A stretch of DNA of 64,000 nucleotides from Octopus vulgaris. Lineage: Eukaryota. The stretch is taken from contig OX597833.1 in the NCBI GenBank assembly GCA_951406725.2, positions 1,612,001 through 1,676,000 of the forward strand. Direction: 5' to 3'. Positions 1,410 through 63,533 of this stretch are shown piece by piece; within the stretch, counting starts at the first letter, position 1; each line of letters starts with the position of its first letter. The notes beneath the pieces were generated by a model. The model saw nothing but the letters and a program-made list of their open reading frames with translations. It was not told the DNA's origin and did not search any database. The position numbers were made by a program, and so were the translations under genes.

Positions 1410-1869
1410 TACACGCATACATGCACATATATATAGGCATTCTTTTGAAGCAATACAAATATGAAAGGTTTTTCTTTGATCGTTTGTGTGTGTATATGTA
1501 TAAATACATACATACATACACACAAACATATATATATATATATAATATATATATATATATTATGTATATATATATATGTATATATATATATATGGATGAA
1601 TATGATTATATATATAGATTTCTGCTATATCAATAATTTTATACACTTTTATATAAAGCCTCACTTTCATTTCAATATGGATTTATGAGACTTTTTCAAT
1701 AAAATATATGTTTCTTGGGAAATAACGAGCTGTTTCACAGATATAATTGGTAAACTGCAATTTTTTTCACGTACATCATTTTTTTGGTATACGCATATGT
1801 ACAGTACATACACACTCACACATATACATACAAATATTTACTACTTTATCTATTCCCATATACATACAT

Positions 1870-1918
<49 letters not shown>

Positions 1919-2553
1919 AATATAGATCATTTATGTGTGTATACTTATATATATATATATATATATATACATAAATATAGATCATTTATGTGTGTATATG
2001 TATATATATATATATATATATAAATATAGATCATTTATATGTGTGTATACGCATATATATATATATTTATATATATATATATATATATATAAATATATAT
2101 ACATACATAAACATAGATAATTTATATGTGTATATATATATATATATATAAATATATATCATTTATATGTGTGTATACATATATATATATATATAGATAG
2201 ATAGATATATATATTGGTGAATGTATGTGTGTTTGTGTGTGTGTGCATCTAAATGTTTTCTTTGTGTATATATATGTATGGATGTGTACTTCCCAAGATA
2301 TGAACTCAGCGATTTGCTGGAACATCTGCAGATTCATAAAACCGAACGATTCCGCCATGAAAATCTCGATTATCCTCACTTGTATCGTAGTATATGTATC
2401 GTCGCCCCTCTCTCTATCAAACAACTCTGGAAGATTATTTTATTATTTCACATATCTTACCATCCTTTCCCCCTTCATCGTCCCCGTTTACGTATACAAA
2501 ATGCATACATACACACACATACACACGCACACTCACACATAGTTATATATATA

Positions 2554-2730
2554 TAGGTGGGGGAGAGTTCATGAAAAAACAAAAGACGAAGACACGTGGT
2601 GTAGATGTATTTTGTATAACGCTCAGGAATAGAAAAAGTCTTTTACGTTTCGAGCCTACGCTCTTCTACAGAAAGGGACACCGAAAAAAACAAGGAGAGA
2701 AAAAATGTGTGTAGTGGCTACGGATCTATC
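2554..2730 (-). mobile_element. PLE pseudo-LTR-like element (family D2) with minimal hammerhead-like motif
   Basis: Minus strand reads cttt-CTGTAGA-a-gagc-gtag-gctc-GAAA-c-GTA-aaag; homologous to 24935-25125 and 26262-26428; flanked by TA-rich repeats. Confidence 0.7.
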
Positions 2731-2772
2731 ATATATATATATACATACATATATATATATATACATACATAC

Positions 2773-2817
<45 letters not shown>

Positions 2818-2968
2818 CATATATATATATATATACATACATATATATATATATACATACATATATATATATACATACATATATATATATACATACATAT
2901 ATATATACATACATATATATATATATACATACATATATATATACATACATATATATATATATACATAC

Positions 2969-3027
<59 letters not shown>

Positions 3028-3028
3028 C

Positions 3029-3059
<31 letters not shown>

Positions 3060-3111
3060 CATATACATACATATATGTATGTATGTATATATATATATGT
3101 ATGTATATGTA
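2730..3111. repeat. Compound (TA)n/(TACA)n microsatellite
   Basis: Seen directly. Confidence 0.95.
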
Positions 3112-4004
3112 TACTAAGCGCTACACAAAATAACCGGAACCCTTCTCTTGAATAAACCCCTTGTAGTTTGTGCTTCTGCCACTAGAAACGTCTTGATGGA
3201 ACCCTTAAACTGACGTCTTAGGGCGTCAGTCTACCGACCGGCCTTGTTCCGTGAGGTCGTACTGCCACCTGGTGTGCCTTTGTTTTGCAGTGTTTTCCCC
3301 GTATATGTGCGATGCCTGCAACGTAGTAACTGCGTGCTCCTGTGAAATCCTGTGTTCTCCCAAGGAAAATGGCAGCTGAAACAATTGTCATGCTTCAAAC
3401 AGCTTACAGGGATGCTACCATGAGCAAGACAAAATTTACTAGTGGTTTTCACGCTGTAGTAACGGTTACTTCCCGTTTGAAACCCAACCTCGTTCAGGGC
3501 GACCGTCGACCTCTCGAAGGAATGAAAACATCATAAAAATTCATGATCTTGGAGGACCGTTACCAAACAATTGACAAACTTGTTGATATGATTGGTGTGT
3601 CTTGGTGCTCCTGCCAACGAACTTTGAGTGAGGAACTGCAGATGTAACGAGTTTTAGCAAAATGTGTGCCTCGCTTGGTCATGGAAGATCAAAAGCATTC
3701 ATGACTGAATGCGTGTTGTGAAATGAAAGAACAGTTGGAAGATGATCCAGAAATTTTTATCGAAGGGCATGACTGGTGATGAAAGCTGGTGCCACGGAAT
3801 TTGCAGATGTGGAAGAGGTGAAGGAAAAAAAGGACATCACTTCGCAAGAGCCCCAGCACTGCTTCAAACAGTGGAGAACGCGTCTGGATTGATGCATTGC
3901 TTCAAATGGAGAATATTTTGAAGGGGATAAAAGTGTAAACGTGTCAGACTAAGGGAATAAAATGATATTACAAAATTCTGGTTTCTTTTGGGTTCCCCCA
4001 CGTA
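3112..4004 (+). mobile_element. Mariner-type DNA transposon remnant with internally deleted transposase pseudogene
   Basis: Translates, with stops and frameshifts, to AAETIVMLQTAYRDATMS, QPRSGRPSTS, AKCVPRLV, TGDESWCH, then jumps to FADVEEVKE and CIASNGEYFEG. Degenerate TIRs at about 3112-3140 and 3972-4004. Confidence 0.9.
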
Positions 4005-4183: not shown

Positions 4184-4715
4184 TTATTGAGCGACCCTAT
4201 ATATATATATATTCATAAAACAATGCGAACGCATTGATATATATATATAATATGCTTCCCTATATATGCTCTGTATAATATACCTAGTAACTCTACTAAA
4301 TACTGTCATAAACTAACCACGATGCTGGAAGCGAGTGGATAATAGTAATCAGCGTGGGTCGCTAGGTCATGCACAAAAAGATCATTTGCCTAATTGTACA
4401 CAGCCATTTCAGTCGCCGTACTATCTTCTGGTTCATCCTCAGTGTTCCCTTCAAACAAACGCACATCTCTTAAGAAACATTAAATCCTCCAAACTAATTA
4501 TTCTGTCTAGTGCCGGGAAATAATTTATCCTCTAGTTAGTACTGAAGGATTATAAACGCTTGTAGGGTCCCTAATGTATATATTACTTTTACATATTGGT
4601 GCAATATATATAAAACAACTGGTGATACAGTTCTATATCTAAGAGATAAGGAATTATGTACATTATTTACATTATTTACATTTCACGGATATCTGTCCTC
4701 ATCTCGTTTGTTGTT

Positions 4716-4761
4716 AACACAACGTTTCGGCTGATATACCCTCCAGCCTTCTTCAGGTGTC
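4716..4761 (-). ncRNA. Type I minimal hammerhead ribozyme motif
   Basis: gacac-CTGAAGA-a-ggctg-gagggtatat-cagcc-GAAA-c-GTT-gtgtt: helix I and helix II pair fully, core intact, helix III is a loopless palindrome. Confidence 0.8.
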
Positions 4762-4857
4762 TTGGGGAAATTTCGAACCTGGGTTCTCATTCCTAAGGTA
4801 TTTTTTGATATTATTATTATTATTATTACTATTATTATTATTATTATTATTGTTGTT

Positions 4858-4932
4858 CAGGTCACTGCTTGGAATCGAACTCGGAATCTTGGGGTTAGTA
4901 GTCCGCGCTCTTAACCACTACGCCATATGCCC
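4858..4932 (-). promoter_or_regulatory. tRNA-derived Pol III head (A and B boxes)
   Basis: Minus strand has A box tggcgtagtggt and B box gagttcgattcc at tRNA-like spacing; no intact acceptor stem. Confidence 0.8.
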
Positions 4933-6557
4933 GTGGACATATGTCGTAGTGGTTAATTGGTTCTTCAGGTGTCTTCCTCAAGACACCTGAAGAAATTCGG
5001 AGGGTATATCAGCTGAAATGTTGTGTTAACAACAAACAAGATGAGGACAAATATCCGTCGAAGTAAATAATGTAAGTAATGTAAATAATGTAATTAACTG
5101 GTGACTTTTCAATTAAAATAAGTATCAGATTCAAACCTAACTAAACTGGCAGAGGTATTTAAAAAACACGTGATGTACTGTACTGCATCGAATAAAGGCG
5201 TATACACCAGCAGGCAAAATCCTCGTGAATGTCCATGCTTTCATTTAGTATGAACCCAATTCCACAGTCGCCTCTAAACGTAAAAGCACAGAAAAGTTTT
5301 TCGCTCAAACTCATGAAATATAAACCAAGCAACATCAAGAATGTAAGACTATAACATGCGTGAATAGTGAAAGGGGGGATCAGCTTTGAACGAGATCAAT
5401 TAGTCGTTCCCATCGACATTAGTTCTCGATTAGTGTTTTATTTTAAGTACAAGGCATGAATGAAAAGTAAATTTAACCACGGAAGAATTTGAAAGAGTAA
5501 AGAACTGCAATATATATCACCATAATTATTTCCTAATGTTTAACGATTGTGTCTATCCTGCGCCCTTCATCCATTAATAGTTAAAAACACATTCATAAAT
5601 TGAACACAAAATTTAACAGATATATGAAAGCAATTGCTGCTCTCTCTGAAAGCGTTTGCCTAATCAACGGTGACTGCTATAAAAATACACTCAGCCAACG
5701 ATACGTCTTATGAAAGAATATTGATTATATTGGGGAGTGGGATGACTACAAATCAATTTAAAAACATACTCTGTTGACATTCTTATACATTTTGAACTTT
5801 ACAAAGTGGAATTGACAAAGCGAGATCAATAAATTTCCGGGTTATAAAAAATAAAAATACACACTGCATTATGAAATGGTGATTCTTAAATGAAAGAGTA
5901 GATTGTTCATAATCAAGTGCTTTCTGTCGAATTTGCACGCTAGGAAATTTATCAATCTTGAATTTTGAATCACTAATCCTAAAACATTGAATAAACATAT
6001 AGAATGAATTTGATTATGCCTCCATGCAAGGAGAAATCTCATTGAATCCAATAACCGCATTCGATCAGTTACAACAACGGCAAAAAAACAAAGAATATCT
6101 AAAAATAAAAACACAAGTGTTTCTCTTCCCACGTCAAATGTATTTAATGTTGTAATTCTTAATAATGTCATAGTGACTCGCCATACATTGCTGTCTTGGC
6201 AGAATTCTTAGAATGAATATACGAATTCAATAAACCGCATTATTCATTTCCGAAATAGCTCGCCTTTATATGAAGGTGACCTATTTTTTGTCACAAAGGG
6301 AAGCATTTGACTTTTAACTTTTTTCTATTTTTACACCCACACATGTCATTGCCATCGGGCTATTTTTATCAGACAAACACACTCATTCAGCTCGACATTC
6401 ACACATATGAAACCGTTTAAAATTTTTCACAGACACATACCTACACACTGACACAAATATAGAAATACACAGAGGCGGGAATGGAAACGTTTAAACTAAT
6501 ACCGAGACATGAAACAAGAATAAACGCAACAGTCAGTGAGTACATATATGCTAAACC

Positions 6558-6944
6558 GTGGAGGCGCAATGGCCCAGTGGTTAGGGCAGCGGACTCGCGG
6601 TCATAGGATCGCGATTTCGATTCCCAGACCGGGCGTTGTGAGTGTTTATTGAGCAAAAACACCTAAAGCTCCACGATGCTGCGGCAGGGGATGGTGGTGA
6701 TCCCTGCTGTACTCTTTCACCACAACTTTCTCTCACTCTTACTTCCTGTTTCTGTTGTACCTGTATTTCAAGGGGCCGGCCTTGTCACTCTCTGTGTCAC
6801 GCTGAATATCCCCGAGAACTACGTTAAGGCTACACGTGTCTGTGGAGTACTCAGCCACTTACACGTTAATTTCACGAGCAGGCTGTTCCGTTGATTCGGA
6901 TCAACCGGAACCCTCGTCGTCGTAACCGACGGAGTGCTTCCCCC
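6558..6944 (+). mobile_element. Family B tRNA(Arg)-like SINE, full length, tail type 1
   Basis: A box tggcccagtggt, B box tttcgattccc, TCG in the anticodon-like loop; 13-bp TSD tatatgctaaacc at 6545-6557 and 6945-6957. Probably an octopus OR-type SINE (not verified). Confidence 0.9.
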
Positions 6945-9057: not shown

Positions 9058-9559
9058 CTAATGTTCTTTTTTAAAAAAATGGGCTATTACAATATCACAA
9101 AGGGTTAGGCTAGGCTACTGGACTACATCTACAACATCTCTGATGTATAATTTCCGCCAACCTTGGGCGCAGGGGGGTGAGGTTAAAGCTATTTTGGGGT
9201 ATGAAAAATGTGTCTAATAGGCAATCAAACACAGTATATATATATTGTATACGCGTGGAAATGGCGGTTACAACGGAACGCTTTCGTTAAGAAAAGAGAA
9301 ACACGTCTGAGTTTGTCGTAGGTTACACTATACGTTGTTGAATCTCCTCCAGAAATTCTCACTGAGGATATTCAAAATTCAATGGTTTTGTATATGGAAT
9401 TCTATATCTGAAATTAAGGAATTGTGTATGGAAACAGCTGTAGGTTGGAATTTCTTTGTATAATTTGAATGACTTTAGATAAAACCATCTGCCTGAATTT
9501 TCTTTCCCTTTTCTTATTTTAAAAATTATATATATATTTATATATATATGGTCTTTCAA

Positions 9560-9770
9560 TATGTGACCTAGTGAGTACCGCTGCCGATTTTTTTCCCTCT
9601 GTCTTCCCTTCTCGGGATCTTTCCTTCTCCTATGTTTCCGACGAAGAGTTCCGCTCGAAACGTTAAACCCTCCTTCTTCCCTTCTTTCCTGAGCGTCCAA
9701 TAATACTTTATTTGTTCCACGTCCTCGCGTTCCTGTGTTTGTTTGTTTTTCTGTGTTTTCTTGTTTGGAT

Positions 9771-9776
<6 letters not shown>
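9560..9776 (+). mobile_element. PLE pseudo-LTR-like element (family D1) with hammerhead-like motif at 9634-9668
   Basis: gttt-CCGACGA-a-gagt-tcc-gctc-GAAA-c-GTT-aaac; ends ttgtttggattaac followed by (TA)n. Confidence 0.75.
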
Positions 9777-9833
<57 letters not shown>

Positions 9834-11828: not shown

Positions 11829-12217
11829 TTTTTTTTGGAAGCACTCCGTCGGTTACGACGGCGAGGGTTCCGGTTGATCCGATCAACGGAACAGCCTGCT
11901 CGTGAAATTAACGTGTAAGTGGCTGAGCACTCCACAGACACGTGTACCCTTAACGTAGTTCTCGGGGATATTCAGCGTGACACAGAGAGTGACAAGGCCG
12001 GCCCCTTGAAATACAGGTACAACAGAAACAGGAAGTAAGAGTGAGAGAAAGTTGTGGTGAAAGAGTACAGCAGGGAACACCACCATCCCCTGCCGGAGCC
12101 TCGTGGAGCTTTAGGTGTTTTCGCTCAATAAACACTCACAACGCGCGGTCTGGGAATTGAAACCGCGATCCTATGACCGCGAGTCCGCTGCCCTAACCAC
12201 TGGGCCATTGCGCCTCC
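11829..12217 (-). mobile_element. Family B SINE, full length, tail type 1
   Basis: Reverse complement of 6558-6944; short poly(A); TSD aat(g/a)gccacgt at 11818-11828 and 12218-12228. Confidence 0.9.
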
Positions 12218-12369
12218 AATAGCCACGTAGAAGGTTGACAGATGCAACGAAATCACTTTCACAAGCAAAAACGAAAGGATCGGATAATTAGGAAATTAGT
12301 TGAAAGGATCCAGTATGAGTGCTTATTATATTGACATAGTGGCTCTCCCTAGACACAGTAAGATTATAT

Positions 12370-12740
12370 ACTCTTTTACTCTCTCTTTTACTTGCTTCAG
12401 TCATTTGACTGTGGCCATGCTGGAGTACCGCCTTTCAATCGAGCAAATCGACCTCGGGACTTATTCTTTGTAAGCCCAGTACTTATTCTATCGGTCTCTT
12501 TTGCCGAACCGCTAAGTGACGGGGACGTAAACACACCAACATCGGTTGTCCAGCAATGCTAGTAGGACAAACACAGACACACAAACACATACACACACAT
12601 ACATGTATACGACAGGCTTCTTTCAGTTTCCGTCTACCAAATCCACTCACTTGGCTTTGGTCGGCCCGGGGCTATAGCAGAAGAACCCGGAACCATGTGG
12701 TTGGTTAGCAAGCTACTTACCACAGCCACTCCTGCGCCTA
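12370..12740 (-). mobile_element. Family A SINE
   Basis: Reverse complement of 21738-22150 with a small internal deletion. Confidence 0.9.
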
Positions 12741-12762
12741 TATATATATATATATATATATA

Positions 12763-12955
12763 AAGTTAATCCAAACAAGAAAGCACAAAAAAAAAACACA
12801 ACAACGCGAGGACGTGGAACAAATATAGTATTATTGGACGCTCAGGAACGAAGGAGGATTTAACGTTTCGAGCGGAGCTCTTCGTCGGAAACATAGGAGA
12901 AGGAAAGATCCAGAGAAGGGAAGACAGAGGAAAAAAAAATCGCCAACGGTACACA
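12763..12955 (-). mobile_element. Family D1 hammerhead-bearing element (core 12859-12892)
   Basis: Reverse complement of 9560-9776; abuts (TA)n. Confidence 0.75.
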
Positions 12956-13122
12956 CGTATGTATAAGTATAACTCGTAATCAAGATAGCAATCCTATCCT
13001 CTCTCTGTCAAACACATAGTTTACAGTAAAGGACGAGACAAGTACCGCACATCAGACGATATAGTGCAAGGAAACAAAGATGTATTTGGAACTAAATTAT
13101 TCGTAGCAGTTCTTGCTTTTCT

Positions 13123-19669: not shown

Positions 19670-20113
19670 TTATCTTTCATCTGTTTTAGTCATTAGCCCG
19701 CGGTCATGCTGGGGCATCGCCTTGAACAGCATTTGTTTTGTCGAATGAATCGACGGCAGTACTTATATTTTGTTAAGCATGGTACTTATTCTATCGGCTC
19801 CTTATGCCAAACCATTGAGTTACGGGACGTAAACACACCAACACCGGTCGTGAAGCTGTGGCGGGGTACAAACACATACACAAAGACTCCTGCACACACA
19901 CACACATATGCACACACACATACACACGCATACACACACATACATATATATGACAGGCTCGTTTCAGCTTCCGTCAACCGAATCCACTGAAAAGGCTTTG
20001 GTCGGCCCTAGGTAACAGTAGAGGACACCTGACCAAGGTGACACGCTGTGGGAATGAACCTGGAAGCATGTGGATAGAAAGGAACCTTCTTACCACACAT
20101 TCACACCTGCGTC
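19670..20113 (-). mobile_element. Family A SINE, diverged
   Basis: Collinear similarity to 42020-42470. Confidence 0.8.
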
Positions 20114-20454
20114 TATATGTTTATAATGTTAAAGTAAGGAATCGCAAAAAGAAAAATTCTTCAAGCTGTGCTAACCTGCAGTAGAGTTGGGGATAAACCA
20201 AGGATGAGATGATTACAAAAATCCCTGAATTTAATTTTGTAACGCTTGGGGATCCAACCGGAAAGTATAATGAAAATGGAGATCCTGCGGAGGAATAATT
20301 GAGGAGTCTACGCTCAAGAACCTACCAGAAATTGTGACAGACAAGAACGGTGAGATGGAGATGATTAAAAGGTATTTAGTTCTACCTTGAAAAATATAAG
20401 CCTGGAGAATACACAAGAATCTCTATTTTTTTCACGCACCATCTTGGGCTACAT

Positions 20455-20672
20455 ATTGGTTTCAAATTTTGGCACAAGGGCAGCAATTTCTTGGAAGTGG
20501 GTAAGTCGATTACATCGATCCCGGTGCTCGATTGGTATTTTTTTTATCGACCCCGAAACGGTTAAAGGAAAATGTCGACCTCGGAGGAATTAGAACTCAG
20601 AATGTAAAGACGGCTGAGATTCTACTAAACATTTCTCCCGACGTCCTAACGATTCTGCGAGCTTGCCGCCTT
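20455..20672 (-). mobile_element. Family C SINE
   Basis: aagtcgattacatcga...ttatcgaccccgaaa...gtcgacctcgg...gaactcagaa. Confidence 0.8.
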
Positions 20673-20689
20673 GATTTGCGCTAAATATC

Positions 20690-21225
20690 AATGGGCTTTC
20701 TTGCTGGTTCAAGCTTTTTTCTTGAGGTGTCCGTTCATTGTTTGGAGTCCCATGTAACAATATAGCGTGTAAGAATAAATGATCATAGTAATGTGGTAGA
20801 CGTTACCCGTTCTACTTGGCCATCAAGTGCTTTTAACAGAGACCTATATGTCACAAACAAATGAGCCAGGCCTGCGGTCTGAGTATAGAAGAGGCCCTTC
20901 GAGTTTTTGAATTCTTGCCTGGTGAGCCATCAAAATTCTCATAGAAATCGACCCATGATAAACAATGATGTGGCTATTAAAATTCATAACAGAATGTAAG
21001 TAACATGCGGAAGGATGTGCCTCTCAGTTGGAGGTCTAAAAGGACATGTTAAGAGAGTGCATATGGTGGCACCTGTTTCTCATGCTAGCCAGCACAGTTG
21101 TCTAGTATGTAAAAGCTTGACCGGGCTTAAAAGTCATATAAGGGCATCACATGGCAACAATCATGAATCATTTCAGTAAGTCTTATTGGCAATGGATTTT
21201 CTCGTGTAACGAGGATGCAGCTGTG
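20690..21225 (+). pseudogene. RTE-clade LINE remnant, internally deleted
   Basis: C-terminal zinc-finger-like CKSLTGLKSHIRA followed by a short RTE-like end (ctcgtgtaacgagga); upstream INNDVAIKIHNR resembles the RT thumb. Confidence 0.55.
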
Positions 21226-21234
21226 ATATATATA

Positions 21235-21279
<45 letters not shown>

Positions 21280-21737
21280 GGAGAGAGAGAGAATAAGAGA
21301 GAAATAACCGCTTTCATTCTCTCCGACTAGAAGTTACAAATAATATAAAATCTGTACCGAATTTTCCTCCTTCGATCAGGCCATAAAGAATGCACTTTTC
21401 TTTTATTCTGTTTCTAGCAGTGTGTTTTCTATACACGTGGTCCTTTGAGGAGGTTTGGCTGCTATTTCTAACAAACAGTCCTTATATACAAACGCTCTCA
21501 ATAACAGTAACACCCGACTTGTGTAGGAAATTTGTTATGTCCTGTGGCAATCGATGTGCAGGGGAGATCTCTAACAAACGTCTGCAAACATCATACTAAG
21601 TGTATTTAGTTCATATTTACATATCTTTCGATTAATATTACAGTTTTGAATTAATTGAAGCATCTTGGGGTTTGATCGTTCTCTCATTTTGCACATGTGA
21701 CATCCAGACGAAACTAGTTCTACGGTTATTAATATTT

Positions 21738-22150
21738 AGGCGCAGGAGTGGCTGTGTGGTAAGTAGCTTGCTTACCAACCACATGGTTCCGGGTTCAGTC
21801 CCACTGCGTGGCACCTTGACCAAGTGTCTTCTACTATAACCTTGGGCCGACCAAAGCCAAGTGAGTGGATTTGGTAGACGGAAACTGAAAGAAGCCCGTC
21901 GCATATATGTATATATATATATGTGTGTGCGCGCGTATGTTTGGGTGTCTGTGTTTGTCCCGCTTACATCGCTTGACAACCGATGCTGGTGTGCTTATGT
22001 CCCCGTGACTTAGCGGATCGGCAAAAGAGACCGATAGAATAAGTACTAGGCTAACAAAGAATAAGTCCCGGGGTCGAGTTGCTCGACTAAAGGCGGTGCT
22101 CCAGCATGGCCGCAGTCAACTGACTGAAACAAGTAAAAGAGTAAAAGAGT
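21738..22150 (+). mobile_element. Family A tRNA-derived SINE, full length
   Basis: A-box-like tggctgtgtggt, B box ggttcagtccc, internal TA/TG microsatellite, 3' tail ggcggtgctccagcatggccgcagtcaactgactgaaac ending in (gtaaaaga)n. Confidence 0.9.
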
Positions 22151-22362
22151 ATTTATTAAGACCATTGCACAAACTTAGATTTTTCACAGAATTTAGCAAA
22201 TGGTTGATCGTATTTTTGAAACCAATTGCGAATTTGCACGTTTACAAGCTTTTCCGAAATTAAAAAAAAATATAAATCATTCTCCTTTTTTGTTCGCTAC
22301 TCTATGTGTATATACATATAGATACATACATACATACATATATGCATGTATGTGTGAGAACG

Positions 22363-22562
22363 TGTGTACCGTTGGCGATTTTTTTCCCTCCGTCTTCCCT
22401 TCTTTGGATCTTTCCTTTTCCTATGTTTCTGACGAAGAGCTCCGCTCGAAACGTTAAATCCTCCTTCTTTCTTTCCTTTCCTGAGCGTCCAATAATACTG
22501 TACTTGTTCCTCGTCCTCGCGTTGTTGTGTTTTCTCTTTGTGTTTTCATGTTTAGATTAACT
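22363..22562 (+). mobile_element. Family D1 hammerhead-bearing element (core 22425-22459)
   Basis: gttt-CTGACGA-a-gagc-tcc-gctc-GAAA-c-GTT-aaat; canonical CUGAnGA core. Confidence 0.8.
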
Positions 22563-22972
22563 TTATATATACACACATACATTCATACGTTCTCACACAT
22601 ACACACATATATATATATATATATACACACATATTTATCTATATGATTTAGGTGTGTATACATATGCTCATAATCTATTTCTGTCTATTATGTATTATTC
22701 GTTCTGTGTGTGTGTGTGTGTGTGTGTATGTGTTTGTATATGTATGTGTTTGTGTGTGCACGCGTATATGAGTGTATACGAAGAAAACAAGAAACAGAAA
22801 TGTTTAAGGAGCTAAGCGACTAGACTCTTCATGTATCGATATTGAACACTAATTGAGAAGGTTTTCCTTGCTAAAACTTTCAATGATGGAAATTTGATTC
22901 TCGTTATATTCATGTTATGCTATTAGTGCGAGATGTTATTTCGCATTTTCACATTCATGTATATATACACAC

Positions 22973-23053
<81 letters not shown>

Positions 23054-23247
23054 TATATATATATATATATATGTATAGATATATATATATATATATATAT
23101 ATGTATTTATGCATAGGTGCTATTTTGCAATGTGCGTGCACCTCATTAGTCGAGCGCATTTAAACAAAAATTTCTTGAAAATTCAGTTGGATCGGAAACA
23201 ATTATCGTTGTGTGTGTATATATGTGTGCATATGTATATGCAAATAT

Positions 23248-23295
<48 letters not shown>

Positions 23296-23328
23296 GTATA
23301 TAAACATGCATAAATCTATATTTAAAAA

Positions 23329-23384
<56 letters not shown>

Positions 23385-24190
23385 GTGTGTGCGCGCGTGT
23401 ATGTGCATTTAAATTTGTATTTTCAGATAGTGATCGCCAGAGACAGTCACAACGAATAATTTTGCATCTGAAATTGTGTTGTCGAATTACAATAATCTTC
23501 CTCACGAATCTTTAATCACTATTTCTAGTAAGAATTATATCTGTGTGTGTCTGTGCATGTGTATATGCGCTTGTCTATGTCTCTACGGCGTATATAATTG
23601 TGTACAGCTCAACGTATGTGCTTATATATTTACAGATATATATATATAGATCTCCGCTTACAAATAGATATTCGTGTTAAATCCTGTCGCAAACATACAC
23701 GCATATGCACGAGATTTTCCTTACAAATAAACATTTCAACATCCTCGCAGGCACACACACGCGCACATACACACACACAAACACAAAAGAAATGGAAATA
23801 CACACGATGCTGATATATAGATATTTTATAAATACCTTCAGATTAATATATGAATCAGCATATATTTCTTACAAAAATGTAAAAATTTAAGATCTACTCT
23901 TCTTTATATTTAATATACAAATATTTTTATATGAACATATTTGTTTAATATTTGCAAATGCATGCAATGCGTGTATATATATATACATATATGTATATAA
24001 CAATTTTAGACCATAGAACGCAGAGTAGATAAACGAAAGACTTTAAAAGAGTTAAATCGAAGGAAATTAAAGATCCTGAAGAAACTGCACCAGTATTATA
24101 GAAGGGCTGCAATTGTAACGGTTGCTAAGCAATGCAGGAGAAACATGTGTACGTCTGTGTAAAGCAGTATATATATATATTATATGTATG

Positions 24191-30067: not shown

Positions 30068-30458
30068 GTATGTGGTAAGTAGCTTGCTAACCAACCACAT
30101 GGTTCCGGGTTCAGTCCCACTGCGTGGCATCTTGAGCAAGTGTCTTCTGCTATAGCCTCGGGCCGATCAAAGCCTTGTGAGTGGATTTGGTAGACGGAAA
30201 CTGAAAGAAACCTGTCGTATATATGTATATATATATGTGTGTGTGTATGTGTTTGTGTGTCTGTGTTTGTCCCTCTAGCATTGCTTGACAACCGATGCTG
30301 GTGTGTTTACGTCCCCGTCACTTAACGGTTCGGCAAAAGAGACCGATAGAATAAGTACTGGGCTTACAAAGAATAAGTCCCGGGGTCGATTTGCTCGTCT
30401 AAAAGGCGGTGCTCCAGCATGGTCGCAGTCAAATGACTGAAACAAGTAAAAAAAAAAT
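30068..30458 (+). mobile_element. Family A SINE, slightly 5'-truncated
   Basis: Near-identical to 21738-22150; poly(A) end. Confidence 0.9.
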
Positions 30459-31502: not shown

Positions 31503-31577
<75 letters not shown>

Positions 31578-31581
<4 letters not shown>

Positions 31582-31790
31582 GTAATCCAAACATGAAAAC
31601 ACAAAGAGAAAATACAACAACGCGAGGACGTGGAACACGTGTAGTGTTATTGGACGCTCAGGAAAGGAAAGGAAAGAAGGAGGATTTAACGTTTCGAGCG
31701 GAGCTCTTCGTCAGAAACATAGGAAAAGGATCGATCCAAGGAAGGGAAGACGGGGGAAGAAATCGCTAACGATTCACACGCGGTCACATT
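31578..31790 (-). mobile_element. Family D1 element (hammerhead core 31684-31718)
   Basis: CTGACGA core; abuts (TA)n. Confidence 0.8.
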
Positions 31791-32024
31791 TTGAATGACC
31801 GGAAGTCCTAGGCTTCGGTAGGCAATGCAAAGGAGAAAAGCGTCTGCGAATATACCAACTCCACTGACCTGTAATCTTTATACTTGCAACATCTGTGGCT
31901 TTCTTTACAAATCGGCAGCGCGACTTAAATGTCTCATTCGACATAAGCATTATGACTGACAAAGAAAGGTACCATGTCGGAGTCTCATGTCGAAACTGAC
32001 AGGAGAGCACGTTATATATATATA

Positions 32025-32218
32025 TGACCTCGTGTGTACAGTTGGCGATTTTTTTCCTCTGTCTTCCCTTCTCGGGATCTTTCCGACGAAGAGCTCCGCT
32101 CGAAACGTTAGACCCTCCTTCTTTCCTTCTTTCCTGAGCGTCCAATAATACTTTATTTGTTCCACGTCCTCGCGTTGTTGTGATTTTTTGTTTTTTTTGT
32201 GTTTTCTTGTTTGGATTA

Positions 32219-32222
<4 letters not shown>
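32025..32222 (+). mobile_element. Family D1 element (hammerhead core about 32078-32113)
   Basis: CCGACGA core; inverted partner of 31578-31790; abuts (TA)n. Confidence 0.75.
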
Positions 32223-32298
<76 letters not shown>

Positions 32299-35856: not shown

Positions 35857-36067
35857 AAGGAATTATCGTACATTATTTAAATTATTTAAATTTAACGGAT
35901 ATTTGTCCTTCATCAGGTGTCTTGGGGAAATTCCGAACCTGGGTTCCTGTTTCTAAGGTATGCCCACGAGCATATGGCGTAATGGTTAAGAGCACGGGCT
36001 ACTAACCCCCAAGATTCCGAGTTCGATTCCAGGCAGTGAGCTGAATAATAATAATAATAATGATAAC

Positions 36068-39220: not shown

Positions 39221-39310
39221 AACCCTCAAGCCTTCATCAGGTGTCTTGGGGAAATTTCCGACCTGGGTTCTCATTCCTAAGGTATTTTTTCGATGTTGTT
39301 GCTGTTAGTA

Positions 39311-39359
<49 letters not shown>

Positions 39360-39401
39360 TTAGGTTATTACCTGGAATCGAGCTCGGAATCTTGGGGTTA
39401 G
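39221..39401 (-). mobile_element. Third copy (one arm) of the tRNA-head/hammerhead element
   Basis: Matches 4737-4898; carries the CTGATGAAGGCT half-core and a B-box remnant. Confidence 0.8.
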
Positions 39402-39700
39402 ATGGCCCGTGTATGGAAAATTAAGAAGGCGAAGACAAGGCGAATTATTATTACATCTGTGGAGAGAGTATCAGGAGGTATCAAGAAGAATATAAAGGAA
39501 GTCGGAATAGAGTGGCCAGTAGAACTCTTACGAAAGATTTGCCTTCTCTGCCACGAGCAGAATAATCAGGGAAGTATTCGGTAGTTGAAAACTATAGAAA
39601 GCAGGCTACCGTAGGCTGCAGTGAGCAAGCTTTCTACATATGCAAGACTAAGAGTTCTAATAAAACCTGAGTTAAAAGAATGATGATAATGATAATCGTA
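39402..39700 (+). pseudogene. Degenerate R4/Dong LINE 3' end (second family)
   Basis: ARVWKIKK...NIKEVGIEWPVELLRKICLL; homologous to 49930-50215. Confidence 0.7.
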
Positions 39701-42019: not shown

Positions 42020-42470
42020 TTTACTCTCTTTACTCTTCTACTCTTTTACTTGTTTCAGTCATCTGACTGCGGCCATGCTGGAGCACCGCCTTTAGTCGAG
42101 CAAATCGACCCCGGGACTTATTATTCTTTGTAAGCCCAGTACTTATTCTATCGGTCTCTTTTTGCCGAACCGCTAGGTGACGGGGACGTAAACACACCAG
42201 CATCGGTTGTCAAGCAATGCTAGGAGGGACAAACACAGACACACAAACATATACACACACATACATATATATATGCATACATATATACGACGGGTTTCTT
42301 TCAGTTTCCGTCTACCAAATCCACTCATAAGGCATTGGTCGGCCCGAGGCTATAGTAGAAGACACTTGCCCAAGATGCCACGCAGTGGGACTGAACCCGG
42401 AACCATGTGGTTGGTAAGCAAGCTACTTACCACACAGCCATTCCTGCGCCTATAGCCACTCCTGCGCCTG
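42020..42470 (-). mobile_element. Family A SINE, full length
   Basis: Reverse complement of 21738-22150; short duplication of the 5' end (agccactcctgcgcct). Confidence 0.9.
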
Positions 42471-53822: not shown

Positions 53823-54699
53823 ATACACGAACATATACATATCTATATATATATATACACAAACATATACATACATATAGGTATATATATATGTATGTGT
53901 AAAGACATACGTGCATAAACTTTTTGATAGATAATTCAGTGCCAAATCTATCACCTCCAAATACAAAGCTGTAACATCATCAAAAGCTATTACTGCCACA
54001 CCACCGCATTTACCCAACCATCAACCGCTTCCCCCCCCCCCCCCAGCGCTACCATCAACAACAACATTCGACTTAAATGGCAATAATACCGCCATTAGCC
54101 GACTCTATGCGTCAATTATACCATTAAAATACGTGGCGCCACTATCGATATCGTATGCAATAAACCGCTCCCACGAGCGCCCTCGCCAACTCTGGCACTA
54201 TCGTAAGGTTGGTAGAAGTATAATGGTTGTTTTTAAACGTGGAAATAAAAGCAATATATCTCATCGCAGAGAAGACAATATAATACAAATAATCACCATT
54301 AAACCGATTTATTTACAGAGGTAACATAGGATTTTGAAGTTTTGGAATCGAAAAATAATCTGAAGAATTTTGAGCTGTTTGTTGCAGGAAGAGGGAGGGA
54401 AACTATAAAATGTTTATTTGCTGAAGTTACACGAAAACAATGCAGAAGAATTTAGATTCACTTATGAATCTAAGAAAACCTTCAGCTTTTGTTATTGTAG
54501 TGTTTCATGCTGACGAGACCCAAGGATGCCGAAATACTGGATGTCCCAGAATCCATTAAACTTATGAATCATATGTGTTATGAAGACATATTGATTGTAA
54601 AGAAAAAGTTGTTCTCCTGAGAAGAAACACAGCAACGATTAGAATATTCCTGCACGAATCTCCTGGTTTCGGTCGGCCTTCATATTTTCTAGATAAATT

Positions 54700-56687: not shown

Positions 56688-58206
56688 GTCTTTTACTTGT
56701 TTCAGTCATTTGCCTGCGGACATGCTGGAGCATAGCCTTGAAGCGTTTTAGTCAGAGAAATCGATTCCAGGAATTTTTAATGCTTGGTTCTTAATCTATC
56801 GGTATCTTTTGCCGAAACGCTAAGTTACGACGGCATAAACACCGGTTGTCAAATGGTAGTGCAGAAACACAGACACAAACACCTACACACACACGCACAG
56901 AATGTATGTACGTATTTCTATACTATCCACAAGGGGCTAAACACAGAGGGGACGAACAAGGACAGACAAACTGATTAAGTCGATTACATCGACCCCAGTG
57001 CGTAACTGGTACTTAATTTATCGACCCCGAAAGGATGAATGGCTAAGTCGACCTCGGCGGAATTTGAACTCAGAACGTAGTGACAGACGAAATACCTATT
57101 TCTTTATTACCCACAAGGGGCTAAACATAGAGGGGACAAACAAGGACAGACATAGGTATTAAGTCGATTACATCGACCCCAGTGCGTAACTGGTACTTAA
57201 TTTATCGACCCCGAAAGGATGAATGGCAAAGTCGACCTCGGCGGAATTTGAACTCAGAACGTAGTGACAGACGAAATACCTATTTCTTTACTACCCACAA
57301 GGGGCTAAACACAGAGGGGACGAACAAGGACAGACAAACTGATTAAGTCGATTACATCGACCCCAGTGTGTAACTGGTACTTAATTTATCGACCCCGAAA
57401 GGATGAATGGCTAAGTCGACCTCGGCGGAATTTGAACTCGGAACGTAGCGACAGACGAAATACCTATTTCTTTACTACCCACAAGGGGCTAAACATAGAG
57501 GGGACAAACAAGGACAGACATAGGTATTAAGTCGATTACATCGACCCCAGTGCGTAACTGGTACTTAATTTATCGACCCCGAAAGGATGAATGGCAAAGT
57601 CGACCTCGGCGGAATTTGAACTCAGAACGTAGTGACAGACGAAATACCTATTTCTTTATTACCCACAAGGGGCTAAACATAGAGGGGACAAACAAGGACA
57701 GACATAGGTATTAAGTCGATTACATCGACCCCAGTGCGTAACTGGTACTTAATTTATCGACCCCGAAAGGATGAAAGGCAAAGTCGACCTCGGCGGAGTT
57801 TGAACTCAGAACGTAGCGACAGACGAAATACCTATTTCTTTATTACCCACAAGGGGCTAAACATAGAGGGGACAAACAAGGACAGACATAGGTATTAAGT
57901 CGATTACATCGACCCCAGTGCGTAACTGGTACTTAATTTATCAACCCCGAAAGGATGAATGGCAAAGGATGAATTTGAACTCAGAACGTAGCGACAGACG
58001 AAATACCGCCAAGCATTTCGTCCGACGTGCTAACGTTTCTGCCAGCTCAGGCTTCTTTGGGCTTCCATTTGCCAAATCCATTCACCAGGCTTTAGTCGGG
58101 CCGAGGCCATATTAGATGGCAGTTGCTCAAGGTGTCACACATTGCAACGAAACCCGGAACCACGTGACTGGGAAGCAAGCTTCTCGCCATACATCAACGC
58201 CTGCGC
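56688..58206 (-). mobile_element. Old family A SINE split (56688-56912 and 58049-58206) by a nested insertion
   Basis: The tail half ends at ...gtatgtacg and the head half resumes at aggcttcttt, adjacent positions in intact copies. Confidence 0.75.
56913..58048 (-). repeat. Tandem array, 6 x 184 bp, of family C SINE body plus a single head
   Basis: Unit starts at 56913, 57097, 57281, 57465, 57649 and 57833; SINE 5' head only at about 58007-58048. Confidence 0.95.
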
Positions 58207-63154: not shown

Positions 63155-63533
63155 GGCACTCCGTCGGTTACGACGACGAGGGTTCCAGTTGAACCGATCA
63201 ATGGAATAACCTGTTCGTGAAATTAACGTGCAAGTGGCCGAGCCCTCCACAGACACGCGTACATTTAGCGTGGTTCTCGGGGAGATTCAGCGTGACACAG
63301 AGCATGACAAAGCTGGTCCTTTGAAATACAGGTACGACAGAAACAGGAAGAAAGAGTGAGAGAAATTTGCGGTGAGAGTGTACAGCAGGGTTCGCCATCA
63401 CACCCTGCCAGAGCCTCGGGGTGCTTTAGGTGTTTTCGGACAATAAACACTAAGAACACCCGGTCTGGGAATCGAAACAGCGATCCTAAGACCGCGAGTC
63501 CGCTGCCGTAACTACTGAGCCATTGCGCCTCCA
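63155..63533 (-). mobile_element. Family B SINE, full length, tail type 1
   Basis: Reverse complement of 6558-6940. Confidence 0.9.

What the first reader, a model, noticed from the sequence alone, without database searches (positions are those of the whole stretch)
4626..5095. Palindromic element with back-to-back tRNA-like Pol III heads and hammerhead ribozyme tails: candidate Penelope-mobilised ribozyme SINE
Seen: on the minus strand a tRNA-like head (A box tggcgtagtggt, B box gagttcgattcc) is followed by (AAT)n, a short linker and an intact type I hammerhead (4716-4761). At the centre the head folds back on an inverted copy of its own 5' part (4911-4956). The right arm lacks the B box and (AAT)n but carries a second, decayed hammerhead on the plus strand (4982-5027). 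A 9-bp direct repeat (aactggtga) flanks the whole unit, so it appears to have inserted as one piece. Established: minimal type I HHRs with palindromic helix III occur in PLE pseudo-LTRs and are thought to cleave as dimers; SINEs normally borrow LINE tails. Inference: a non-autonomous element with its own divergent Pol III promoters and self-cleaving ends that parasitises PLE reverse transcriptase. I do not know of a described family with this layout.
Basis: partly seen in the sequence, partly recalled or inferred. Interest (0 to 1): 0.9.

Follow-up and report, generated by a model that had tools for sequence, protein, structure and literature searches.

The report
Penelope retroelement end with tRNA promoter
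This is the short end-piece of a Penelope-type jumping gene, inserted with the mirror-image partner that such elements often carry; unusually, it begins with a tRNA-derived stretch that likely acts as its promoter.

Summary
The motifs are real, but the unit is not a palindromic SINE. Head, (AAT)n, hammerhead and tail (4626-4939, minus strand) are the pseudo-LTR of a Penelope/Poseidon-type retroelement. In longer copies the head follows the stop codon of an RT + GIY-YIG-type ORF, and the hammerhead and tail encode that ORF's first ~55 codons. The right arm is the known inverted, 5'-truncated partner: 43 of 87 sampled copies have one, with widely scattered breakpoints. Its 'head' is a 22-nt fold-back without a B box, and its hammerhead is broken. 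The layout (inverted pLTR, one-sided tail, 9-bp TSD, palindromic junction) is in print for rotifer Penelope.

Not found in nine literature searches: a tRNA-derived A/B-box head inside a PLE pLTR. Of 69 copies that reach the head's first bases, 54 stop there, which suggests Pol III transcripts; a native hairpin at the same spot is a live rival. In 21 of 25 paired insertions exactly one arm has the tail (never both), and the arms share source variants. This fits priming of both target ends on one RNA. New variant of a known kind.

The parts
4617..4625 (.). Left target-site duplication (9 bp)
   Evidence: family-wide TSD test
4626..4652 (-). PLE 'tail' (about 27 bp), present on the left arm only; in long copies it runs on into the ORF
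4626..4790 (-). First 55 codons of the PLE ORF (one stop codon in this copy); contains the hammerhead
   Evidence: 50% identity to residues 18-59 of the intact 847-aa homologue P0004, E 8e-10
4716..4761 (-). Intact minimal type I hammerhead; predicted cut after GUU, between 4721 and 4720
   Evidence: architecture as in PMC4209133
4809..4857 (-). (AAT)n tract of variable length between head and start codon
4860..4932 (-). tRNA-Arg-like head; A box 4925-4915, B box 4882-4871; likely Pol III promoter
   Evidence: pile-up of 5' ends
4928..4939 (.). Native 5-bp micro-palindrome at the head start; centre of the fold-back
   Evidence: present in ORF-linked copies; 238 exact head-to-head centres genome-wide
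4935..4956 (+). 22-nt fold-back copy of the head's 5' end; no B box, so not a complete type 2 promoter
   Evidence: fold-back length varies among 15 other exact-centre loci
4961..4994 (.). Second short fold-back (15-bp arms) at the inner end of the right arm
4980..5095 (+). Inverted, 5'-truncated partner pLTR without tail; broken hammerhead at 4982-5027
5096..5104 (.). Right target-site duplication (9 bp)

Best explanation
The element is a lone pseudo-LTR of a Penelope/Poseidon-type retroelement, inserted with an inverted partner arm and likely copied from an RNA that began at a tRNA-derived Pol III promoter inside the pLTR. Shown: the order ORF stop, 29 nt, tRNA head, (AAT)n, start codon, hammerhead, tail, rest of ORF; the TSD; the one-sided tail. 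Inferred, step by step: (1) transcription starts just before the head; (2) the RNA is used uncut by the hammerhead; (3) the endonuclease makes a staggered cut (9 bp here) and both DNA ends prime reverse transcription on the same RNA, at two internal sites about 128 and 156 nt after the start codon, so only one arm gets the tail; (4) each cDNA ends in a short fold-back (22 and 15 nt here) and the two are joined head to head. Starting inside the ORF's 5' part and running to the RNA's 5' end gives exactly a head-to-tail stub, which would explain why stubs far outnumber ORF-bearing copies. The stub is probably a dead end, because it lacks the ORF sequence beyond the tail.
For: PLE identity: 24 of 30 loci picked by the ORF's 3' end have the head directly behind it, as do 24 of 30 picked by the ORF body (three of these being the query and two near-identical copies). 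The tail runs into the ORF N-terminus in about 21 of 30 loci, counted by eye. RVT_1 hit; 273 longer homologues, including an 836-aa Anolis carolinensis protein. 5' ends: 54 of 69 head-anchored copies that reach +5 stop at -7..+5 (50 directly, 4 with a perfect fold-back), and 16 of 19 in a sample anchored 3' of the hammerhead (six loci shared with the first sample). Exact 20-mer counts fall from 11770 to 8740, 4372 and 1078 going 5', steepest across the head start. Perfect fold-back at the 5-bp palindrome occurs 238 times; fold-back after reading through the longer native hairpin 3 times. Twin priming: 3' ends are bimodal; 21 of 25 pairs have exactly one tail and none has two (Fisher p 5e-4; L118 and L122 are one duplicated locus); in 11 of the 21 the tail-less arm reaches further 5', so neither arm can be a plain DNA copy of the other; arms of one locus share minority variants 3.3 times as often as arms of different loci, and agree in 22 of 22 pairs at one diagnostic column. 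In vitro precedent: both strands cut and extended, two RT start sites that define the tail, uncut RNA as main template (PMC11167929).
Against: No RNA evidence: no transcription start, polymerase or cleavage was observed. The strongest 30-nt RNA hairpin in 490 positions (-10.8 kcal/mol) and the strongest cDNA 3' hairpin both sit at the head start, so structure alone could cause the pile-up. The one mapped Penelope promoter that I read about is LINE-like, with Inr, DPE and an intron. The lack of T4 runs along the element is not significant once codons are held (P 0.09-0.24 for the ORF body, 0.4-0.6 for the N-terminal part). A and B boxes are not better conserved among copies than their surroundings (expected for dead copies, so uninformative). 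Asymmetric arms could also arise from later deletion at a palindrome centre, and shared variants from gene conversion between arms. Samples are the first matches on contig C1 with an exact 20-mer, so they lean to younger copies, and the head anchor favours long 5' extents in one arm.
Confidence: 0.62

Rival explanations
1. Same PLE pLTR, but the tRNA segment is a passenger. Long Pol II or read-through RNAs are copied, and reverse transcription stalls or folds back at the native hairpin at the head start.
For: The native imperfect palindrome at -17..+8 is the most stable local RNA structure and gives the best cDNA hairpin. Palindromes at inverted junctions are known in other PLEs (PMC3846280). 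PMC10886601 argues that autonomous partners of Pol III-driven elements must use Pol II.
Against: Fold-backs form at -6/-7, where the cDNA hairpin is weak (ranks 21-61 of 490), and almost never after the full hairpin (3 against 238). The next two hairpins (-9.4 and -8.4 kcal/mol) show no comparable pile-up.
Confidence: 0.27
2. A self-propagating, PLE-dependent SINE has split off: lone pLTR stubs are re-transcribed by Pol III and mobilised in trans.
For: Heads outnumber ORF ends roughly 6- to 15-fold (estimates 20,000-24,000 against 1,700-3,200). The stub has A and B boxes and no T4 run. pLTRs alone can mobilise sequence in trans.
Against: No stub-specific variants and equal divergence in 52 stubs and 45 ORF-linked copies. 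In PAc the template needs ORF sequence beyond the RT start sites, which stubs lack.
Confidence: 0.08
3. One reading: a fixed palindromic SINE with two divergent Pol III promoters and self-cleaving ends.
For: 238 exact head-to-head centres; several near-full two-armed copies; TSDs around the whole unit.
Against: 44 of 87 copies have no inverted arm and breakpoints scatter. The right head lacks a B box. Element ends lie 50-90 nt 3' of the cleavage site. The left arm is part of the autonomous element.
Confidence: 0.02

Closest known systems
Penelope/Poseidon PLE insertions: Adineta vaga Pen2a (PMC3846280, passages read) and the general PLE layout (PMC8557442, passages read)
   Same: Inverted 5'-truncated pLTR next to the 5' end, 8-10 bp TSD, 30-40 bp tail at one end, ORF start inside the pLTR, palindrome at the inverted junction, head-to-head polarity.
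   Different: Their pLTRs have TATA/Inr-like motifs; 'tRNA' does not occur in PMC3846280. Here a tRNA-Arg-like head and an (AAT)n tract lead the pLTR, and 5' ends pile up at the head.
PAc, Poseidon of Anolis carolinensis (PMC11167929, parts 1-2 of 4 read)
   Same: Hammerhead overlaps the ORF start; two RT start sites inside the ORF define the tail; uncut RNA is the main template; both strands are extended.
   Different: No tRNA head is described. There the ORF starts at stem II; here it starts 11 codons before the catalytic core.
Minimal hammerheads of metazoan PLEs (PMC4209133, parts 1-2 of 4 read)
   Same: Long helix II, short helix I, extra base after A9, palindromic helix III; opposite-strand pairs 100-700 bp apart; single motifs read as truncated PLEs.
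   Different: None for the ribozyme itself.
TRIMp3: Cassandra, Helenus, Ajax (PMC10886601, passages read)
   Same: A small-RNA-derived Pol III promoter inside a terminal repeat.
   Different: Those are non-autonomous LTR elements without ORF; here the repeat belongs to an ORF-bearing PLE.
Schistosoma SMalpha (PMC8490949, passages read) and non-LTR retrozymes (bioRxiv 10.64898/2026.07.22.740005, parts 1-3 of 5 read)
   Same: Short repeats with a type I hammerhead; SMalpha is called SINE-like (its tRNA-type promoter is recalled, not seen in a call); retrozymes are proposed to derive from pLTRs.
   Different: Retrozymes are head-to-tail arrays; here copies are dispersed, single or head to head, and show no lineage apart from the autonomous element.

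Membership tests
Penelope-like element (EN+, Penelope/Poseidon type) | Single ORF with RT and C-terminal GIY-YIG endonuclease linked to the repeat | tested here: met
   RVT_1 in linked ORF pieces; homologues with RT and some with PF01541; the C-terminal part resembles P0001/P0004/P0057 by eye. Pfam GIY-YIG itself did not score on the decayed copies.
Penelope-like element (EN+, Penelope/Poseidon type) | pLTR on both sides of the ORF, containing the ORF start | tested here: met
   3' side. 5' side: (L201 and L212 show ORF end, head, hammerhead, ORF start in tandem). Coding match.
Penelope-like element (EN+, Penelope/Poseidon type) | Minimal type I hammerhead in the pLTR | tested here: met
   core intact in 32 of 64 copies, 19 also with the palindromic helix III.
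Penelope-like element (EN+, Penelope/Poseidon type) | Inverted truncated partner, one-sided tail, short TSD | tested here: met
   43 of 87; 21 of 25; 13 of 25 against 1 of 95.
Penelope-like element (EN+, Penelope/Poseidon type) | Placement in the Penelope/Poseidon clade by RT phylogeny | not tested
   No tree was built. The clade name rests on 38% identity to an 836-aa Anolis protein that I take to be PAc-like, and on recalled motifs.
tRNA-derived SINE | tRNA-derived head with A and B boxes at the 5' end of most copies | tested here: met
tRNA-derived SINE | Head not shared with the autonomous partner; own lineage | tested here: not met
   The head is part of the autonomous element; no stub-specific variants.
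tRNA-derived SINE | Transcription by RNA polymerase III | not testable with these tools
   Only assembled contigs were offered; they cannot show starts.
Non-LTR retrozyme | Head-to-tail tandem arrays of hammerhead units | tested here: not met
   Copies are single or inverted pairs; a few loci hold a second direct fragment (e.g. L056, L058), no arrays were seen.
TRIMp3 (Cassandra, Helenus, Ajax) | Two LTRs with PBS and PPT, no ORF | tested here: not met
   The repeat flanks and overlaps an RT ORF and carries PLE insertion marks; PBS and PPT were not searched for.

The most novel reading that the evidence does not exclude
An autonomous, protein-coding retroelement run by RNA polymerase III: a captured tRNA-Arg head in the pLTR starts the RNA, the ~2.9-kb element has no T4 terminator so Pol III can read it through, and internal RT priming turns most transcripts into tens of thousands of SINE-like stubs. 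It would be a PLE with a built-in SINE, caught at the step where a SINE could be born, and its paired stubs would record twin priming on one RNA.
Probability: 0.22. Interest if true: 0.82.

Novelty: new variant of a known kind. Interest (0 to 1): 0.55.

Why it matters
How PLEs make inverted repeats and one-sided tails is called unresolved in PMC8557442. This family offers an estimated 37,000 short arms on which twin priming can be tested by counting. If the head is the working promoter, it is a counter-example to the stated expectation that coding retroelements need Pol II (PMC10886601), and a direct route from a PLE terminal repeat to a SINE. It also warns that some repeats labelled tRNA-SINE in such genomes may be PLE ends.

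Tried and rejected
Rfam on the window and on the element: only microsatellite-driven miRNA hits among the 150 rows shown, no tRNA or hammerhead on the element. ARAGORN: none. The Pfam GIY-YIG search of the genome returned other PLE families; none of its 30 loci linked to this pLTR. The partner was found instead through copies that run on 5'. Hammerhead-cut RNA as template: only 3 of 78 arms begin near the cut site, rejected. Selection against Pol III terminators: no T4 run in 2266 and 769 majority columns against 6 in 1800 for a second PLE, but G4 runs are absent too and the codon-aware test is not significant; permissive only. Expression: no RNA holder listed; no verdict. Empty-site test: contigs of four runs from four other organisms hold the family, three show the head running into the ORF end, and one holds both flanks of this locus, but none bridged an empty site; no verdict. 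PDB: no PLE structure, weak RT hits only. Earlier scan findings: none. PMC5785218 was not held; only its title was seen in a reference list. Dfam, Repbase and the repeat library and supplement of PMC13282606 were not seen; the family may be listed there as a Penelope or SINE entry.

Full report
Setting. The window is G000:C20:1612001-1676000 in a 2.8-Gb, microsatellite-rich animal genome. It holds no N. Positions written +n or -n count from the first G of the tRNA-like head (window 4932) on a yardstick copy with a short (AAT)n tract.

Observation. The head aligns from first to last base with a genomic tRNA-Arg(TCG) (49 of 75 columns); other isotypes also score, and only six were sampled, so 'Arg' is a best fit. 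The left hammerhead has the minimal type I form described for metazoan PLEs (PMC4209133) and pairs helix III only as a dimer. The right arm is patchwork: a 22-nt fold-back of the head, 4 filler bases, a second 15-bp fold-back (4961-4994), then +128 to +235 with a broken hammerhead.

The unit is the left arm. It is abundant: exact 20-mers occur 11770 (+186), 8740 (+147) and 4372 (+30) times, for rough estimates of 37,000 3' parts and 20,000-24,000 heads (small denominators). I sampled 90 copies by an exact B-box 20-mer, taken in order along contig C1 from 3831 matches, and dropped three duplicates for most counts. The hammerhead follows the head in 66 of 87, so this is not chance nesting. An inverted arm abuts the 5' end in 43 of 87, with inner ends from -200 to +200. 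In 15 of the 238 loci with an exact head-to-head centre the second arm ranged from about 10 nt to nearly full length.

It belongs to an autonomous PLE. Fifteen of the 90 copies run on 5' of the head; 13 carried the ORF-end motif and translate to an endonuclease-type C-terminus. Long copies hold RT, thumb and endonuclease regions, all broken by stops or frameshifts. The head lies 29 nt after the stop codon. At the other end the tail continues into the ORF's N-terminus. Window 4790-4626 translates to 55 codons with one stop and matches the N-terminus of the intact homologue P0004 (E 8e-10); six long copies extend this match across the junction at 41-47% identity. So hammerhead and tail are coding sequence, as in PAc (PMC11167929), and the window element is a lone pLTR.

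The layout is known. PMC3846280 describes an adjacent inverted pLTR, a 9-bp TSD, a 31-bp tail on one pLTR, the ORF start within the pLTR and palindromes at the junction. PMC8557442 gives the same as general PLE features. PMC4209133 notes opposite-strand hammerhead pairs 100-700 bp apart.

What the copies say about mechanism. 3' ends cluster near +225-236 and +257-266. Among 25 pairs with both outer ends mapped (24 independent), 21 have exactly one tail, 4 have none and none has two; 13 have a TSD of 8-13 bp against 1 of 95 controls. In 11 of the 21 the tail-less arm reaches further 5' than the tailed arm, in 7 the reverse, in 3 they are equal. Plain snap-back copying of one cDNA cannot give the 11. 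Arms of one locus share minority variants (31 in 2860 sites, 3.3 times the between-locus rate, 0 of 2000 permutations as high), although they differ overall at 10.6% of sites against 11.9% between loci. I infer that both target ends prime on one RNA at the two start sites, then fold back briefly and join. Later deletion at the palindrome centre and gene conversion are not excluded. PMC3846280 prefers self-priming on an antisense template.

What is unusual. 5' ends pile up at the head start: 54 of 69 copies that reach +5 stop at -7..+5, and 16 of 19 in a second, partly overlapping sample of 78 arms. The ORF-end 20-mer occurs only 1078 times. A start near -6 would lie 13 nt before the A box, which is usual for type 2 Pol III promoters (own knowledge). 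The rival is a native hairpin at -17..+8, the strongest local structure. Against it, fold-back after reading through that hairpin is found 3 times and fold-back at the inner 5-bp palindrome 238 times (the two patterns are similar, not identical, in strictness). The element has no T4 run, so Pol III read-through is possible, but this is not significant after holding codons. I put a Pol III start at about even odds or slightly better, and full-length Pol III transcription at about 0.2.

Novelty. Nine full-text searches listed no paper on a tRNA-derived promoter in a PLE pLTR; most hits were seen as listings only, and subscription papers, Repbase and Dfam were not searched. Read in part: PMC11167929, PMC4209133, PMC13282606 (parts 1-2 of 3; family-level structure not described there; supplement not opened) and the 2026 retrozyme preprint. 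Read as passages: PMC8557442, PMC3846280, PMC10886601, PMC8490949, PMC8967140, PMC6962438, PMC2377424 (with abstract). Cephalopod papers were consulted because the repeats looked familiar from recall; the host of G000 was not established.

Verdict. A real element of a known class and known insertion layout, misread as a designed palindromic SINE. The tRNA-headed pLTR and the statistics on paired arms are the parts worth following.

Noticed in passing
window 9550-9832, 12739-12958, 22353-22643, 31503-31789, 32020-32274: Five copies of a second repeat with a hammerhead-like core and a palindromic helix III, each ending at a (TA)n tract; probably the pLTR of another PLE. In at least three copies a substitution or deletion touches the core. 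Partner ORF not found; predicted folds did not clearly give a hammerhead.
   Followed up: partly
window 35857-36052 and 39222-39409: Two more copies of the studied family: one with an internally deleted inverted arm joined to a head, one truncated at both ends.
   Followed up: partly
L082, L087 and others: A younger PLE family with an intact 781-aa frame in 16 of 148 GIY-YIG matches, followed by a short tandem repeat; it has T4 and T5 runs and served as control.
   Followed up: partly
yardstick -17..+8 (window equivalent 4924-4939 and beyond in long copies): The native imperfect palindrome at the head start may itself be the fossil of the fold-back that joined the tRNA head to the PLE 3' UTR.
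   Followed up: no
L319-L388: 29 of 78 arms end 5' in or at the (AAT)n tract, more than its length suggests; this may be truncation by microhomology, later breakage, or my mapping failing across long tracts.
   Followed up: no
window 4995-4998: Four adjacent mismatches in helix II of the right hammerhead look like a junction or filler, not point decay.
   Followed up: no
window 56909-58007: Tandem array with a period of about 184 bp, built from part of a dispersed repeat.
   Followed up: no
window 6559-6941, 11837-12218, 21737-22151, 30071-30451, 42031-42452, 63156-63533: At least two other dispersed repeat families of about 380-420 bp, SINE-like by appearance.
   Followed up: no
window 54503-54545: A lone hammerhead-like core motif that does not fold as a hammerhead.
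   Followed up: partly
L093: A GIY-YIG match unlike the PLE ones, resembling a host SLX1-type nuclease (recalled).
   Followed up: no
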